Virus record (IMG/VR): IMGVR_UViG_2908567220_000004
Strand: one strand, 5' to 3'
From: a virus
Lineage: Duplodnaviria; Heunggongvirae; Uroviricota; Caudoviricetes
DNA: 35,453 bases
The position numbers are program-made. Position 1 is the first letter of the stretch. Each line of letters begins with the position of its first letter. Shown here piece by piece: positions 14,701 to 26,700 of this stretch.

Positions 14701-17700
14701 AATGTCCGGAGCCATTAAAGTCTGTTGTTGAATTTGCACTGGCAACAGGCTTAAGACGCTCGAACATCATCAACCTTGAATGGCAACAAATAGACATGCA
14801 GCGCCGGGTGGCATGGATAAACCCGGAAGAGAGTAAATCAAACCGCGCAATTGGCGTTGCGCTGAATGATACTGCATGTCGCGTTTTGAAAAAACAAATC
14901 GGGAATCATCACCGTTGGGTATTTGTGTACAAGGAAAGCTGTACCAAACCAGACGGAACGAAAGCGCCAACAGTAAGGAAGATGCGGTATGACGCAAACA
15001 CAGCCTGGAAAGCGGCGCTGAGACGGGCTGGTATTGATGATTTCAGATTTCACGACTTGAGACACACCTGGGCAAGTTGGCTGGTTCAAGCCGGAGTCCC
15101 GTTGTCAGTGTTACAGGAAATGGGAGGCTGGGAGTCTATCGAAATGGTTCGTCGATATGCTCACCTTGCACCTAATCACCTTACCGAACACGCACGGCAA
15201 ATAGACTCGATCCTGAACCCATCGGTCCCAAATTCGTCCCAGTCAAAAAATAAGGAAGGTACTAATGATGTGTAACTTATTGATTTAAATGGTGCGATAA
15301 TAGGAACAAAACAAACAATAAAAATACATTGATATATAAAGACATTTCCCCATTACATCTTTGGAGATACCCCCAAAAGTACCCCCAAACAATTTTCTCT
15401 CACCACCATTTGCACATAAAGCAGCCATGTACAACTGGTAGTTGAACAGGCGGGTAGACCGTTCGTTCAGTAAATACCTGATATTTCCGCCAACGAGAAA
15501 TTGCGTTGGCTGGCAGAGTGCAAATTTGCACGATGACCTAACCCATTGATTCTTTCGAAAACCTGCAATGCAGGAAATGGGGGGAGGTAAGCCTAACCCA
15601 TTGATTATTTCGCCCCCCCCCATTGGGGGATGTCGGGAAAGTAAGCCTAAACCATGAGTAGACCTACGAAATTTTCGTAACCCCCTACGAAATTTTCGCA
15701 GTTTAATTACTCGCCAGATTAATCGCTAACCCGCTGATATTTTCGGAAACCTCAATTTGAGGAATGTACCTAAAACCATTTTTATAGCTCCGCTCCCTTC
15801 AAAGTGAAGGGTAATTTGCCAAAACAGAGAGAGCATTACTGTCTCTGGCAATCTTTATCGCGATAACGCCTGAAGTACCCTCTCGCTTCCTCATCCATAC
15901 CAAGAGCCGAATGAGTTCGCTTAACTGCCTGTCTTAAATCTCCGAATCTGTCTGTAGTTGCTGGTGGGCGTGCCGCCTTACGGATACATTCAGAGCGCCT
16001 GTTTGCTGCATGTTCACGTTCTTTATCGCCATTTGCCAGCATCATGACTTCTGCCCATCGTGCGGCAGCTCTCCGGTATAGCCCTTTTGACTCCAGCTCT
16101 TCAGCTTTCCTGTCCCTTATCATTTCTGCCTCTCAGATTATATAGATAAGCAAAAAGGTGTTGGTTCAGTTGGTTCAGTTGGTTCAATTTGTAAAGAGCG
16201 TTGTTTTTATTGTGTTTTTTCTAAAATATTGAACCAACATCAACTCATTTTGAACCAACAAAAAGTGTCCGTGAACTAACACTCTGTCAAATAGTCACTA
16301 CATATATGAACGGTGAAGACTAAATCCGCCAGCAAATAGCTTATATAGCACCGCTTTATGCCGCAGTTATGCTGGAACAGTAATCATTTCACAGAACCGC
16401 CTAACTACTATATGGCACCTGCTAAAAAGCACATCAGCCTAGTCAGTTGATCGGTGCATGGATATCCTAACAATTCAACTATATAACGTGATCTCCCATG
16501 TCGATCTACTGTCATGCAATGATTAACAAACACATAGACACATCTGCTTGGCGCATTGATTAATCACTGATCATCCATCAGGATATGCGAACCACCGTCA
16601 CCAGGTTAGGATGATTCTCAAAAGCCACCTGTATTCAATGCCTTTGATGGGTTTCATCCATAGTTATTTTCTCGTGACTGACATGGAGATTTTGATTTCA
16701 AGGTGTGCAAAAACTATCGCAGAGTACAATGGAGCTCAAATGACTGTGGCACCAAAAGATCAAAGTTTGAAATCTGTAAGGGTGGGCTTTTACACAAGCT
16801 CTGAGAATATTCGCACTAGTAACAAGGGGTTAACCGCAGAGGCCTTTAAAAATCTGTATGATCGGTGTTCTAAAGACTTCAAGATGACCCACTATGCAGA
16901 CTTTGGTGAAAGAGAACTTAAAATTCATTTTCTAGACATCTCACCCGAGGATGGCTCCTACTTCGGATTCATGTCTCGAAGAAGAAAAAGCGCAACACTG
17001 GCATATATTACAGATAAAGAGTGGGTGGAAGAGAAAATCCCTCTAGCCGGGGCAAAGACTCTTTCAGAACGTACATACTTTATTTATTATCCTCAGACAG
17101 ACATTCTAGTATTGTCTTTAAATCATTTAGGTCCACGCCATAGTGACTTAGCCTTCCTTCTTTTCAACTCCAGTGATCGCGGAGTCCCTGTTTCTTTTGA
17201 AGCCATTTGGAAAGAAGAAAGCATCAAAGAACTACTCGAAACTGGATCCAATCTAAGAAGCTGCGAGATTTCTGTGGCCATCCCAAGAAACTTCAATGCC
17301 GCACAGTATCAACTCGATGGAATGTTCGCGAATCAGATGATTGAGATGATCAGAGGCACCAGTTCAAGCCACCTGACTATTTCGTTACGCGGACATTCTC
17401 CATTAAAAAGAAAAGCAAAGGGATGGCTTGAGGATGACGTTAAAAAAAGCCTTAAGGAGATGCTAGAAAAGTTCCCTGGTGGTGATGGTCGTTTAACTTT
17501 TGAGAAAGCAAATGTTGTTGCTCAGGGCGATAAAAAGAAGAAAAGTCTTGTAGACGAAGTTCTTACGGTAAAGAAGATGGTGCCTATCCAAGCAGATGGG
17601 TATCCGACCGATACTGACGTTAAAAATGCTATGCTACAAGCAAAGAATGACAACCTTAGGTATCTAACCCAGTACTATTTGGTTAGTCAAACGTAACAGG

Positions 17701-23700: not shown

Positions 23701-26700
23701 ACCATGGTAATGCTGTTAAGGAATGGTGAGTTTTCGAGAAGCCATTTGCAGAATAATCGATGCCCTTGCAGTGCATATTCACCACGGAATCCGGGGTCGT
23801 ACACCGCATGGCATTCAACAACGCTATGCCAGAAGTTACGCACTTCATGAACGCCAGCCAGCACTAATCCTTCGTAGATGCCGAGATATACCGCATCAGG
23901 CTTGATGTAGTACGTGTGCCCCGGCTCAACAATATTTTCGGTATTGCCTGGCTCGTTAAGAAAGGCCTGTAATCGCACAGGGTTATCAATAAATTTTAGT
24001 TCCATGCGATGCCATCCATTTTCACATACAGCCTGCCAGCGCCTTATCTATTAACCCTCGTGCAATTTCATGCAGAGTTGGCGCTACTCCAATTCCTGAT
24101 TTTTTACGCTGCTCTTCCTGAATTTTCTTTATCGCTTCCATTTGCTTCTCACTTATCAATACCGGCTTTACTGAAATAGCCATAACGCCCCTTAGAACTG
24201 TATAAAACAACAGTTATTATAGTTTCACAAATCGCAATATTCATCATCGTAATTGCAAAATATGAAACAAATAGCACAAAAAAATGCCACCGCTCAGTAG
24301 CTGGTGGCATCGTTCTGTGTGTCAGGTTTTGACAGGTTTTTTATGGACTCTAAAAACTATATTTATGGTGTCGCATTACTCTTCACGGCAGGCGCTTTTC
24401 AGTTCTGCCCTTGCTTCTGGCTCCATTGGTAATTTGATTCGCGATCAGCTATGCGGATGGTTTGCTGAACAGGCATAACAACTTCTCAGAGGCTGTTTTT
24501 TGAACTACGAAAATTTCGTAGTGCTCACTTTCAAAAACGTCACGCCCTTGTACACAGGATTTTACGAAAGTCTCGTAAAACACTCTCTGATGCCAGCCAG
24601 GTGTTGTGCGCATCAATTCAGTCACATTGTGTTGGTTCAAAATACCGTGTTGTTGGTTCAGTGTTGGTTCAATAAAAAGAATAAAATCCTTATAAAACAA
24701 TACTCTTTACAAATTGAACCAACTGAACCAACTGAACCAACACCTTTTCTACGCACATGAAGAAGCTCATTCTTCAGATGAGTTATAATCTCCTGGCTGG
24801 TAATTGAGTACATAAACGTTTATTTGTCGTCCCTGAATACGTGGTGATTTTCTTTGGTATCCACGACCGCTGTTTGGTGGGGTTAGCATCCCGGCTTTTT
24901 TCAACACTTCAGCAAACTGTTTTGCGTTGAAACCACATGCGATCTCCTTTTCAAATGTGGCCGGGAATGTGTAGAAAATCATTGGGCTTTCGTCATGTTC
25001 TCCACGCTGACGGTATCCGGCTAAATCTTTGATGGGCAAATCTGCCGGGCTGTATGGAAATGGTGCAAAACGGCTAAGCCCATAGGCATTAAGAAATGCC
25101 TCCGTTTGTTCAATAATCTGCTGATGCTCTTTGTTACCTGTGCCGAACTCGCGCAACCATGCGTTATAGCTGTGCTGTATCGCATCACGGCATGTCTGAG
25201 CATCCCAGCCTGTTACAACCTCGCCTAACAACAATGCGGCCTCCAGAATGGCAAATCGCGCGGCTACACGGTGAACCTGCTCACCATAATCGGATGGGAT
25301 CAGGCTTCTCCATCTGCTTTCGCAATCACGAACGGTTTTAATAGCCTGTTGCTGGTGGTCTGCCAGCCATTTAATCCACTCACGCCCGGACGCGCCGTGG
25401 TGATGCTGGTAAGCGTCTTTCAGTGCGTCTGCGTGCTGTTTTCCGTTCTGGTAATCGTGAAAGCGTACTGCTTTACTCAACGGAATATTCAGCAGTCGCA
25501 CCAGTTGCCCGGCTTTGGTTTTTCGCCCGGAAGTAGCGATAAATGTTTCTAAATCCATTTCTCCGGTGCTGATTGCCACTGTACGCCAACGTTTTAGATC
25601 CCGGTTTCCACCATCTTTAGCGCCTTGCAGTTTCCCTACACCGTTAAATAACGCATAGGCAGACTGTGAAACGCTGACAGGATCAGCGCCCTGACCAACT
25701 TCATCAAGCGGCATTAGTCCGTCATTGTGGGCGGCGGCCTCATTTGCCAGCCCCAGCGCGGTTCCGTACCACGTCAGCCGCAGTAAATCAGGGTTGCCGT
25801 ATAAGCTGCTCGCCACGTTTGCCGTGGTGGTCTTACCTGCGCTCGACTGCTCATAGAAATGAATGCCGAACCCGTCAGCGCCCACCAGCCCAATCAATGG
25901 CGCTGCCAGTGCTGCGCCGATCCCGGTCATCATTGAATAGTTACCAAAGGCCAGACGCGCCACGTTATCACGCCAGCTTTTCGCGCTCCCTAAGACGGTA
26001 TATCCGGCTGCGGCTGAGCTTCTCCCGCTGAACAGCACAGGATTTTCAGGTGTTCCGATGATTTCCCCATCAGGCATGATGTACGCTCCGCATTGCCAGC
26101 CAGTGGCATGAGCAACACGCCACAATTCACGAGAGCCACTGCGTTGTAGCCAGTCTGCCAGTATTGCTCTGAGGCTGCTTTTGGTCGTGACATTTACCCC
26201 ACCAGCTTTAAGTGTGCGCCATCCTTCACGTTCACCAATATCAGCCAGTGGAATGGCAGCGGTTGTCGGCGTTTCAGAACCAAACGACAGCCAGCGAAGA
26301 ATGAGATACTGGTCTTTATCGTCTCTGCCAGTACCGATAACGCTTAACGGAGAACATAACCAGCTTTCGTTATTGATGATTTCTCCACTCTGGCTGTCAG
26401 CTCTCGGAGATACCCAATAAATACCATCCTCGCGGCTTTCTATTCTTGGTTTCAGTGGGTCGGTATCCATAACCTTAAAATCGCTTCCCTCAATGGTCTG
26501 TGGCTCCTGTTTCACGCCATCACCCTGTGGTTGGTACATTGACTTATTGAACGCTTCTGTGGCGCATTTAATGCCGTGTTTTTGGTGGTAATCATTCCAG
26601 TCTGCTTTGTGATCTGTCGGGGGTAATGCCACCCATCCAGAAACAGATAAAGCTGCTTTTTCTGCTGCTATTCTCCCCGTGTTTTGTCTTCCTTCGCTGT

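What the first reader, a model, noticed from the sequence alone, without database searches (positions are those of the whole stretch)
16153..24748. Perfect 39-bp inverted repeat of TGGTTCA iteron blocks flanking the 8.5-kb cargo segment
16153-16191 is the exact reverse complement of 24710-24748. Both loci also carry extra direct and inverted TGGTTCA copies. One cluster lies right after the stop of the alpha-type primase-helicase gene. In P4, alpha binds short iterons present in both ori and the cis-required region crr, so these are likely ori/crr equivalents. Perfect identity over 39 bp either side of the cargo is striking and could also enable inversion or cassette exchange.
Basis: seen in the sequence. 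Interest (0 to 1): 0.6.

Follow-up and report, generated by a model that had tools for sequence, protein, structure and literature searches.

The report
Split mirror-image replication origin of PICI
The two inverted repeat blocks are the two mirror-image halves of the replication origin of a known type of phage satellite (an EcCIMP1-like PICI at tRNA-Thr), pulled 8.5 kb apart by the satellite's own late and accessory genes; the origin type is known, but this split layout has not been described in the papers I could search.

Summary
The perfect inverted repeat is 46 bp (16153-16198 / 24703-24748), with weaker similarity over about 115 bp. All 11 exact GTTGGTTCA 9-mers in the window lie in the two clusters.

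The host element is an EcCIMP1-like phage-inducible chromosomal island (about 15.3-34.0 kb) at tRNA-Thr. It carries int, alpA, a Pri-Rep primase-helicase and perC.

Each cluster has three tandem iterons, a 43-bp spacer that is about 80% AT, and 2-3 iterons in the opposite direction. That is the published SaPI/PICI origin layout, found directly 3' of pri-rep.

In 15 relatives the two outer iteron triples sit only 230-300 bp apart, forming one compact origin. In 10 loci, including this one, they are 2-9 kb apart. All 10 are of the "mirror" type, in which each half has its own AT-rich spacer.

Iteron sequence changes between relatives together with a 6-residue motif in the Pri-Rep C-terminus (RKSPRI versus GRV-RE).

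The repeats are not transposon ends. No inversion was found in any of 589 E. coli genomes. The two halves do exchange sequence patches.

The P4 ori/crr analogy holds for function only. Verdict: a new variant of a known kind, of moderate interest.

The parts
24767..27526 (-). pri-rep: 919-aa primase-helicase initiator with a Zn-ribbon, a Toprim domain, a DUF927 helicase and a C-terminal iteron-reading region (about residues 820-919)
   Evidence: Pfam: DUF927 7.5e-47, Zn_Ribbon_Prim 2.8e-15, Toprim_3 6.2e-15. The N-terminus is 33% identical to the P4 alpha primase domain. The helicase part matches SaPI Rep 8tch_A at E 3.7e-8. Specificity motif at residues 891-896.
24631..24741 (-). Half-origin A. 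Outer triple of 9-bp iterons at 24715-24741 (TGAACCAAC x3 on the + strand). AT-rich spacer at 24672-24714 (84% AT). Three inner iterons in the opposite direction at 24631-24639, 24652-24660 and 24663-24671.
   Evidence: The same layout sits directly 3' of the primase gene in about 35 relatives.
24591..24600 (-). Conserved centre motif CTGGCTGGCA (minus strand). In compact relatives it lies at the dyad centre between the two halves. Here the intervening genes begin just beyond it.
16160..16280 (+). Half-origin B, the mirror image of A. Outer triple GTTGGTTCA x3 at 16160-16186. AT-rich spacer at 16187-16229 (79% AT). Inner iterons in the opposite direction at 16230-16238 and 16251-16259, plus a degenerate copy at 16272-16280.
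16153..16198 (.). Left arm of the perfect 46-bp inverted repeat. Its partner is 24703-24748.
24703..24748 (.). Right arm of the perfect 46-bp inverted repeat.
16137..16142 (-). -10-like box (TATAAT on the minus strand) 10-15 bp outside the outer triple of half B, reading into perC. A similar box follows the right outer triple in most relatives.
   Evidence: 18 of 26 loci by a strict pattern; others have TATTAT or TACTAT. The consensus scan found no full sigma-70 promoter, so this is an inferred promoter.
15836..16123 (-). perC-family regulator gene, the first gene outside half B
   Evidence: Pfam PerC 3e-33. PerC is a typical Gram-negative PICI accessory gene.
19347..24210 (-). Post-origin module lying between the two halves: small orf (24022-24210), P22 gp14-like DUF2824 (23544-24005), gp7 (22873-23550), gp20 (21452-22873), gp16-like (19347-21452). 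All are co-directional with pri-rep.
   Evidence: Pfam and PHROG. 89-94% DNA identity to P22-like E. coli phages. The same genes are drawn as 'DNA transfer' in EcCIMP1.
16611..19328 (+). Variable accessory spot next to half B: orf361 (16611-17696), orf145 (17709-18146), orf195 (18741-19328). Function unknown.
   Evidence: No Pfam or PADLOC hit; only PHROGs of unknown function. Other strains carry an Abi gene, a small HTH gene or alpA_1 here.
31999..32202 (-). alpA, the PICI master regulator homologue
   Evidence: Pfam Phage_AlpA 7.4e-20.
32630..33844 (-). PICI tyrosine integrase next to tRNA-Thr
34010..34085 (-). tRNA-Thr (CGT), the attachment site. A degenerate copy of its 3' end at 15288-15306 marks the other end of the island.

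Best explanation
The two clusters are the two mirror-image halves of the replication origin of an EcCIMP1-like phage-inducible chromosomal island (PICI) integrated at tRNA-Thr.

Each half is a complete PICI/SaPI-type origin unit. It has three tandem 9-bp iterons (GTTGGTTCA), an AT-rich stretch of about 43 bp that would be the melting site, and 2-3 iterons pointing the other way.

The island's Pri-Rep protein (primase + DUF927 self-loading helicase) reads the iterons with its C-terminal region, melts the AT-rich spacer and loads itself.

In many relatives the two halves, or at least the two outer triples, lie 230-300 bp apart as one compact quasi-palindromic origin directly 3' of pri-rep. In this lineage the island's post-origin genes sit at the dyad centre, so half A stays next to pri-rep and half B stays next to perC. 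Those genes are a P22-like gp14/7/20/16 module plus a variable accessory spot. Half B's outer triple also abuts the probable perC promoter.

The long perfect identity comes from constraint on the protein-binding sites plus occasional sequence exchange between the halves.

Shown: the anatomy, the family-wide conservation, the covariation with the protein, the absence of inversion, and membership of a mobilisable PICI family. Inferred: actual binding, that both halves fire, and any regulatory role at perC.
For: (1) Context. The island has int, alpA, pri-rep and perC at tRNA-Thr. It matches the description of EcCIMP1, which excises and is transduced by the P22-like phage Kapi1.

(2) Published rule. 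PICI and SaPI origins lie immediately 3' of rep and consist of iteron sets in opposite directions flanking an AT-rich region. The Rep C-terminal winged helix reads the iterons. Each cluster here fits that rule.

(3) Helicase homology. The helicase domain is homologous to SaPI Rep (8tch_A, E 3.7e-8).

(4) Spacing in relatives. The second, inverted outer triple is 174-355 bp from the primase stop in 19 loci, 2.0-9.1 kb away in 10 loci, and not found in 5. All 10 split loci are of the mirror type, with an AT-rich right spacer (68-88% AT) and inner iterons opposed to the outer ones. The 11 asymmetric compact origins (right spacer 30-40% AT in 10 of them, 65% in L022) are never split.

(5) Specificity. 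At least 8 iteron sequences occupy the same positions in different relatives. Between GGTTCA-type (n=21) and GTCTCA-type (n=5) proteins only 8 of about 919 columns differ cleanly. All 8 lie in the last 97 residues, and 5 of them within 891-896 (RKSPRI versus GRV-RE). A 55%-identical Morganella protein with GGTTCA iterons keeps RKSPRV.

(6) Validated origin. The EcCICFT073 origin region, shown to work experimentally, also has inverted outer tandem iterons 190 nt apart.

(7) Episomal form. A 12,152-bp circular record of a close relative carries both halves 2 kb apart.

(8) Abundance. About 10% of complete E. coli genomes carry both halves.
Against: No binding or replication data exist for this element, and the EcCIMP1 paper did not examine its origin.

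The covariation could partly reflect co-transfer of the gene's 3' end with the adjacent origin as one recombination block.

The structure prediction of the C-terminal region was poor (pLDDT 54), so the winged-helix reading is not established.

Some relatives show only one half within 10 kb (L015, L026, L027). So half B may be dispensable, or may serve another purpose.

In asymmetric compact origins the right outer triple has no AT-rich spacer of its own. This shows that this triple can have a role other than flanking a second melting site.
Confidence: 0.75

Rival explanations
1. P4-style division of labour. Only one cluster is the true origin; the other is a crr-like element required in cis that stimulates initiation by protein-mediated looping over 8.5 kb.
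For: In P4 the alpha iterons occur in both ori and crr. crr lies directly 3' of alpha, and each 120-bp crr repeat has iterons in both directions around an AT-rich stretch, much like cluster A. The primase domain is homologous to that of P4 alpha. The right outer triple is kept in nearly all relatives, even where it lacks its own AT-rich spacer, which suggests an auxiliary role.
Against: The helicase and C-terminal domains are not alpha-like. The two clusters are near-equivalent mirror copies, not a distinct ori plus two direct repeats. Only mirror-type origins, whose halves are each complete, are found split. Some relatives appear to have a single half.
Confidence: 0.2
2. Half B is mainly a control element rather than an origin. 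It could be a Pri-Rep operator on the perC promoter. It could also be a copy-number or incompatibility locus that titrates or handcuffs the initiator, as second iteron clusters do in P1, F or R6K (from my own knowledge of iteron plasmids).
For: A -10-like box lies 10-15 bp outside the right outer triple in most relatives, and the next gene starts about 60-100 nt away in many. The triple would cover the -35 position. A relative exists as a 12-kb circular record, a state in which copy control would matter.
Against: A simple operator would not need its own AT-rich spacer and a set of opposed inner iterons, yet all split loci keep these. The consensus scan found no full promoter. This role is compatible with, rather than exclusive of, an origin role.
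Confidence: 0.2
3. The repeats serve chiefly as recombination substrates, either for inverting the 8.5-kb segment or for exchanging it as a cassette between elements.
For: 46 bp of perfect identity. Mosaic patches are shared between halves: the A half of L085 carries the B-type spacer, and the B half of L086 carries an A-type inner segment. Gene content next to half B differs between strains.
Against: The predicted inversion junction is absent from all 589 E. coli genomes that carry the pieces. Every IMG/VR contig with both arms has the same order and orientation. The arms also exist side by side without any cargo. The identity sits in the protein-binding iterons.
Confidence: 0.08
4. The repeats are the terminal inverted repeats of an unrelated mobile element that inserted next to the primase gene.
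For: An inverted repeat flanking 8.5 kb superficially resembles transposon ends.
Against: Relatives without the intervening genes keep both arms adjacent. No ORF in the interval matched a transposase or recombinase family. There is no target-site duplication: the flanks are ATAAGCAA and CTACGCAC. The arm sequence co-varies with the primase protein.
Confidence: 0.01

Closest known systems
Gram-negative PICI replication origin (EcCICFT073 pri-rep-ori; Fillol-Salom et al. 2018, PMC6092414)
   Same: [quoted passage not shown] The island has int, alpA, pri-rep and perC. In EcCICFT073 the outer tandem iterons are likewise inverted, 190 nt apart.
   Different: Here the origin unit is present twice as mirror images, and the copies are separated by 8.5 kb of genes. 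The Pri-Rep allele also differs: a 919-aa DUF927 type against the 584-aa EcCICFT073 primase.
EcCIMP1, a PICI of E. coli MP1 mobilised by the P22-like phage Kapi1 (Pick et al. 2025, PMC11773190)
   Same: Same site (proA/thrW side, with the yagU-vat island beyond). Same gene set: int, alpA, antirepressor, Ash, primase, DNA-transfer and DUF2824 genes, perC. Similar size: about 18.7 kb here against 19,963 bp.
   Different: The paper does not describe an origin or iterons. This window's copy carries orf361/orf145 where EcCIMP1-type copies carry alpA_1. I did not align the window to CP139039 directly.
SaPI origins and Rep self-loading helicases (Ubeda et al. 2007, as cited in PMC7581432 and PMC9371898)
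   Same: A DUF927/Rep-like helicase. 6-12 iterons sit directly downstream of rep, with at least two on each side of an AT-rich centre pointing in opposite directions. The C-terminal domain determines specificity.
   Different: The primase is fused and P4-alpha-like. The iterons are 9-bp units rather than 5-6 bp. The origin unit is duplicated in mirror orientation and split.
Satellite phage P4 ori / crr with alpha protein
   Same: Two separated clusters of the same initiator's iterons lie kilobases apart, one directly 3' of the primase-helicase gene. The primase domain is homologous.
   Different: P4 crr is two direct 120-bp repeats and its ori has a different layout. The helicase is D5/SF3 rather than DUF927. 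The C-terminal domains show no detectable similarity. The iteron is TGTTCACC rather than GTTGGTTCA.
Iteron plasmids with a second iteron cluster (P1 incC/incA, R6K gamma with alpha/beta); from my own knowledge
   Same: A second array of initiator sites lies at a distance from the origin, acting by looping or handcuffing.
   Different: Those initiators are not helicases. Their second clusters are not mirror copies containing their own AT-rich element.

Membership tests
Gram-negative PICI (Fillol-Salom 2018 criteria) | Integrase next to a specific attachment site | tested here: met
   int at 32630-33844 lies beside tRNA-Thr at 34010-34085. A degenerate att copy is at 15288-15306.
Gram-negative PICI (Fillol-Salom 2018 criteria) | alpA regulator downstream of int | tested here: met
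   31999-32202, Pfam Phage_AlpA 7.4e-20.
Gram-negative PICI (Fillol-Salom 2018 criteria) | pri-rep gene followed at once by an origin made of iteron sets flanking an AT-rich region | tested here: met
   The iterons start 26 nt after the stop codon. There are 3 + 3 iterons around an 84%-AT spacer.
Gram-negative PICI (Fillol-Salom 2018 criteria) | Induction, replication and packaging dependent on a helper phage | not testable with these tools
   Reported for EcCIMP1 with Kapi1: excision, circularisation and transduction. Replication was not measured there.
Gram-negative PICI (Fillol-Salom 2018 criteria) | No phage structural or lysis genes | tested here: inconclusive
   No capsid, tail, terminase or lysis genes were found among the ORFs scanned. 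The island does carry P22-like virion ejection-protein genes gp7/gp20/gp16 and gp14.
SaPI-type Rep/ori replicon | Rep-like (DUF927) self-loading helicase | tested here: met
   Pfam DUF927 7.5e-47. Matches 8tch_A 'Pathogenicity island protein' at E 3.7e-8.
SaPI-type Rep/ori replicon | C-terminal domain reads the iterons | tested here: inconclusive
   Covariation of residues 891-896 with iteron type supports it. The fold is unresolved (pLDDT 54), and the domain gave no PDB sequence hit.
P4 alpha / ori / crr system | Alpha-type primase domain | tested here: met
   33% identity over 359 aa, E 2e-41.
P4 alpha / ori / crr system | D5/SF3-type helicase and alpha-type C-terminal origin-binding domain | tested here: not met
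   The helicase is DUF927. There is no BLASTP similarity beyond residue 362. hhalign of the C-terminal profile against the P4 alpha C-terminus gave probability 0.2%.
P4 alpha / ori / crr system | crr made of two direct 120-bp repeats 3' of alpha, plus a differently built ori about 4.5 kb away | tested here: not met
   Here there are two single mirror-image units. Relatives have them adjacent.
P4 alpha / ori / crr system | The second site is required in cis for replication | not testable with these tools
   Needs a replication assay.
Transposon or insertion element bounded by terminal inverted repeats | Transposase inside the element, target-site duplication, and empty sites that lack the repeats | tested here: not met
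   No transposase was found. The flanks differ. Relatives without the interval keep both arms.
Invertible DNA segment | Both orientations present in populations | tested here: not met
   The inversion junction is found in 0 of 589 genomes. IMG/VR contigs show a uniform orientation. Minor isomers within a culture cannot be excluded.

The most novel reading that the evidence does not exclude
A truly split origin. The two mirror halves work together across 2-9 kb, for example each loading one Pri-Rep hexamer that moves in the opposite direction, or pairing by looping. The interval between them would then be a tolerated cargo bay at the dyad centre of the origin. Half B would double as a Pri-Rep-responsive switch for perC. 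The halves would be kept alike by gene conversion. This would be a replicon layout not described for satellites or plasmids.
Probability: 0.2. Interest if true: 0.65.

Novelty: new variant of a known kind. Interest (0 to 1): 0.45.

Why it matters
PICIs spread virulence and defence genes, and about 10% of complete E. coli genomes carry this family. Four points follow.

- The origin of the EcCIMP1-type islands was not described in the papers I found. This work places it and predicts its parts.
- A complete origin unit exists in two mirror copies that tolerate 0.05 to 9 kb between them. This gives a natural series for asking what spacing and symmetry a self-loading helicase origin needs.
- The RKSPRI / GRV-RE motif is a concrete, testable specificity code for Pri-Rep. 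It bears on incompatibility between co-resident satellites.
- The genes lying between the halves include virion ejection proteins taken from the P22-like helper lineage. That is itself an under-studied way for a satellite to interact with its helper.

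Tried and rejected
- **Transposon ends.** Rejected: compact relatives keep both arms, and there is no transposase and no target duplication.
- **Inversion switch.** A chimeric junction query found no full-length match in 589 genomes. IMG/VR contigs all have one orientation.
- **P4 membership.** The C-terminal profile against the P4 alpha C-terminus gave no similarity. A PDB sequence search with that profile gave nothing useful.
- **Structure of the C-terminal 189 aa.** The shallow alignment (14 sequences, at least 79% identical) gave pLDDT 54, so I did not run a fold search. 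Its strand-helix-helix-hairpin order is only a hint.
- **Defence function for the variable ORFs.** No PADLOC hits.
- **Sigma-70 promoter and terminator scans around both clusters.** No full promoter was found, and no terminator between the primase stop and cluster A.
- **Composition profile across the segment.** Uninformative.
- **Literature on the P4 crr mechanism.** The searchable library returned nothing usable. Statements on crr function beyond the GenBank annotation rest on my own knowledge.
- **Literature on split or duplicated PICI origins.** Only the 2018 description of compact origins was found.

Full report
**1. Observation**

The reported 39-bp inverted repeat exists. It is part of a 46-bp perfect one (16153-16198 / 24703-24748). 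This sits within 55 nt at 96% identity, and a further 43 nt at 79% follows. Shuffled windows give 14-20 nt at most.

TGGTTCA occurs 15 times against 5.4 expected, and 11 of those copies lie in the two clusters. The full 9-mer GTTGGTTCA occurs 11 times in the window, all in the clusters, plus one 1-mismatch copy at 16272.

Each cluster has the same internal plan:
- three tandem iterons with a 9-bp period;
- a 43-bp spacer that is 79-84% AT, against 52% for the window;
- 2-3 iterons in the opposite direction, at 11- or 21-bp spacing.

Cluster A begins 26 nt after the stop codon of the 919-aa gene at 24767-27526.

**2. What the surrounding element is**

The region from about 15.3 to 34.0 kb is an island at tRNA-Thr (34010-34085). 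A degenerate copy of the tRNA 3' end lies at 15288-15306.

The island encodes the following:
- a tyrosine integrase, AlpA, an AntA/B antirepressor and an Ash-family protein;
- the primase-helicase;
- a P22-like gp14/gp7/gp20/gp16 module;
- three ORFs of unknown function on the other strand;
- PerC.

The same island occurs in E. coli ABU 83972, EcPF14 and others at 99.7-99.9% identity.

This gene set, position and size match EcCIMP1. EcCIMP1 is a PICI shown to excise, circularise and be transduced by the P22-like phage Kapi1. Its paper does not describe an origin.

Left of 15.3 kb lies the early region of an SfIV/SfV-like prophage that shares the same attachment site.

**3. The protein next to cluster A**

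Pfam finds a primase Zn-ribbon, a Toprim domain and DUF927. The first ~360 residues are 33% identical to the primase domain of P4 alpha. Nothing beyond that aligns.

The helicase part matches a solved SaPI protein (8tch_A, E 3.7e-8) and the SCCmec helicase Cch.

So 'alpha-type' is right for the primase domain only. The initiator-helicase is of the SaPI Rep kind.

The published rule for that kind has three parts:
- the origin lies directly downstream of rep;
- iterons point in opposite directions on either side of an AT-rich centre;
- the Rep C-terminal winged helix reads the iterons.

[quoted passage not shown] Each cluster in the window fits this rule on its own.

**4. Relatives**

A scan of one genome per species with a Pri-Rep alignment returned 80 loci.

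In most loci with a full-length homologue, iterons start 26-90 nt after the stop codon. A second outer triple, inverted relative to the first, also follows:
- at 174-355 bp from the primase stop in 19 loci;
- at 2.0-9.1 kb in 10 loci: the window, the circular 12-kb record L002, three more E. coli strains, and Leclercia, Cedecea, Lonsdalea, Chimaeribacter and Pantoea;
- not found in 5 loci, two of which have too little sequence downstream.

The arms therefore belong to the replicon backbone, not to whatever lies between them.

Fifteen of the compact origins were typed, and two origin designs exist:
- **Asymmetric compact design (11 loci).** The right side has a GC-rich spacer (30-40% AT; 65% in L022) and mixed inner iterons.
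- **Mirror design.** The right side repeats the left: an AT-rich spacer (68-88% AT) and inner iterons all opposed to the outer triple. Four compact loci and all ten split loci are of this design.

Separation is thus seen only where each half has every part of an origin unit. This is the main reason I read the halves as two complete units rather than as an origin plus an accessory site. The loci are not phylogenetically independent; there are roughly five split lineages.

In the window, the conserved centre motif CTGGCTGGCA stays with half A (24591-24600). The intervening genes begin just beyond it.

The experimentally validated EcCICFT073 origin region has a different primase allele and a different iteron. 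It too has inverted outer tandem iterons, 190 nt apart.

**5. Who binds the iterons**

At least eight different iteron sequences occupy the same positions in different relatives.

I compared 21 GGTTCA-type and 5 GTCTCA-type proteins, all at least 68% identical to the window's. Only 8 alignment columns have disjoint residues. All 8 lie in the last 97 residues. Five fall within residues 891-896: GRGYQ-RKSPRI-xGRQ against GRGYQ-GRV-RE-xGRQ.

A Morganella protein only 55% identical overall, but with GGTTCA iterons, keeps RKSPRV. A CGGTTCA-type protein has RKTPRI. More distant iteron types have other residues there.

This points to the C-terminal region as the iteron reader.

Caveats:
- The 3' end of the gene and the origin are adjacent, so they could move together as one recombination block.
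- The structure model of this region was of low confidence (pLDDT 54).
- No similarity to the P4 alpha C-terminus or to any solved chain was detected.

**6. Other readings tested**

*Transposon ends.* Rejected; see section 4. In addition, no ORF in the interval matched a transposase, and there is no target duplication.

*Inversion.* I built the junction that inversion would create. It has no full-length match in any of the 589 complete E. coli genomes that hold its two parts. All IMG/VR contigs with both arms show the same order: primase, A, small orf, gp14 to gp16, variable genes, B, perC.

*Exchange between the halves.* This does occur:
- in strain 19AR1321, half A carries the B-type spacer;
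- in strain SFE8, half B carries an A-type inner segment;
- L002 has the same private variant in both halves.

Constraint on the binding sites plus such conversion explains the long perfect identity.

*Variable gene content.* Gene content differs between strains only in the stretch next to half B: orf361/orf145 here, and an Abi gene, a small HTH gene or alpA_1 elsewhere.

**7. A second possible role for half B**

Ten to fifteen bp outside the right outer triple there is a -10-like box in most relatives (TATAAT here, 16137-16142 on the minus strand). The next gene, perC here, starts about 60 nt from the triple.

Pri-Rep bound to the triple would cover the -35 position.

The consensus scan found no full promoter, so this is an inference. 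It does not exclude an origin role.

**8. Mechanism proposed**

After helper-induced excision, Pri-Rep binds the outer and inner iterons of a half through its C-terminal region. It melts the AT-rich spacer, loads as a helicase and primes.

Both halves can probably do this. Whether they fire independently, cooperate by looping as P4 ori and crr are thought to, or whether B mainly tunes perC or copy number cannot be decided from sequence.

A close relative exists as a 12,152-bp circular record with the halves 2 kb apart. About 10% of complete E. coli genomes carry both halves. The split layout is therefore clearly viable.

**9. Comparison and novelty**

The island is a member of a known kind (Gram-negative PICI, EcCIMP1-like), and its origin unit is of the known SaPI/PICI type.

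What I could not find described in the searchable papers:
- the mirror duplication of the unit;
- its separation by 2-9 kb of genes placed at the dyad centre.

The resemblance to P4 ori/crr is functional. Membership fails on the helicase, on the C-terminal domain and on the repeat layout.

I rate this a new variant of a known kind, with moderate interest.

Noticed in passing
window 19347-24005: The satellite carries a full P22-like gp14/gp7/gp20/gp16 (ejection-protein) module in phage gene order, 89-94% identical in DNA to P22-like E. coli phages. In some strains gp16 is annotated as a pseudogene, or gp14/gp7 are missing. What a satellite gains from its own ejection proteins is open.
   Followed up: partly
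window 15665-15700 and 24506-24577: A 15-bp palindrome TACGAAA(N)TTTCGTA occurs 4 times against 0.09 expected. Two copies lie just inside half-origin A, and two lie between perC and the att end of the island. It may be an operator or a packaging signal; it is unexplained.
   Followed up: partly
window 16611-19328; L084, L085, L086: The stretch next to half-origin B is a variable spot. It holds orf361/orf145 here, an Abi-family gene in strain 19AR1321, a small HTH or alpA_1-like gene in MS 85-1 and in IMG/VR copies, and other small ORFs in SFE8. The window's ORFs gave no PADLOC hit.
   Followed up: partly
window 1-15306: The early region (int, repressor, replication and Q-type genes) of an SfIV/SfV-like lambdoid prophage lies in tandem with the PICI at the same tRNA-Thr site. 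Its integrase ends 13 nt before the degenerate att copy at 15288-15306.
   Followed up: partly
window 8291-8365: Five tandem 15-bp repeats (CAGATTTTGACGGGT-like) lie inside the prophage replication gene 7722-8663 (HTH_36 domain). They are probably the lambdoid origin iterons within the O-type gene.
   Followed up: no
window 15537-15770: Three copies of a 46-nt repeat (CCTAACCCATTGATTnTTTCG...), each holding a short palindrome, lie between perC and the island end. Their function is unknown.
   Followed up: no
L002 (NZ_CP148430.1, 12,152 bp circular): A close relative of the island is deposited as a complete circular 'plasmid' with a different integrase and only two small ORFs between the origin halves. 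It is either an excised, replicating satellite or a plasmid-state form.
   Followed up: partly
L037, L043, L067: The Pri-Rep reading frame is broken in these loci (products of 48-584 aa), although the iteron clusters are intact. These may be decaying islands or assembly errors.
   Followed up: no
L005-L078, centre of the compact origins; window 24591-24600: A conserved CTGGCTGGCA(G) motif marks the centre of the origin across genera and iteron types. Its role is unknown.
   Followed up: no
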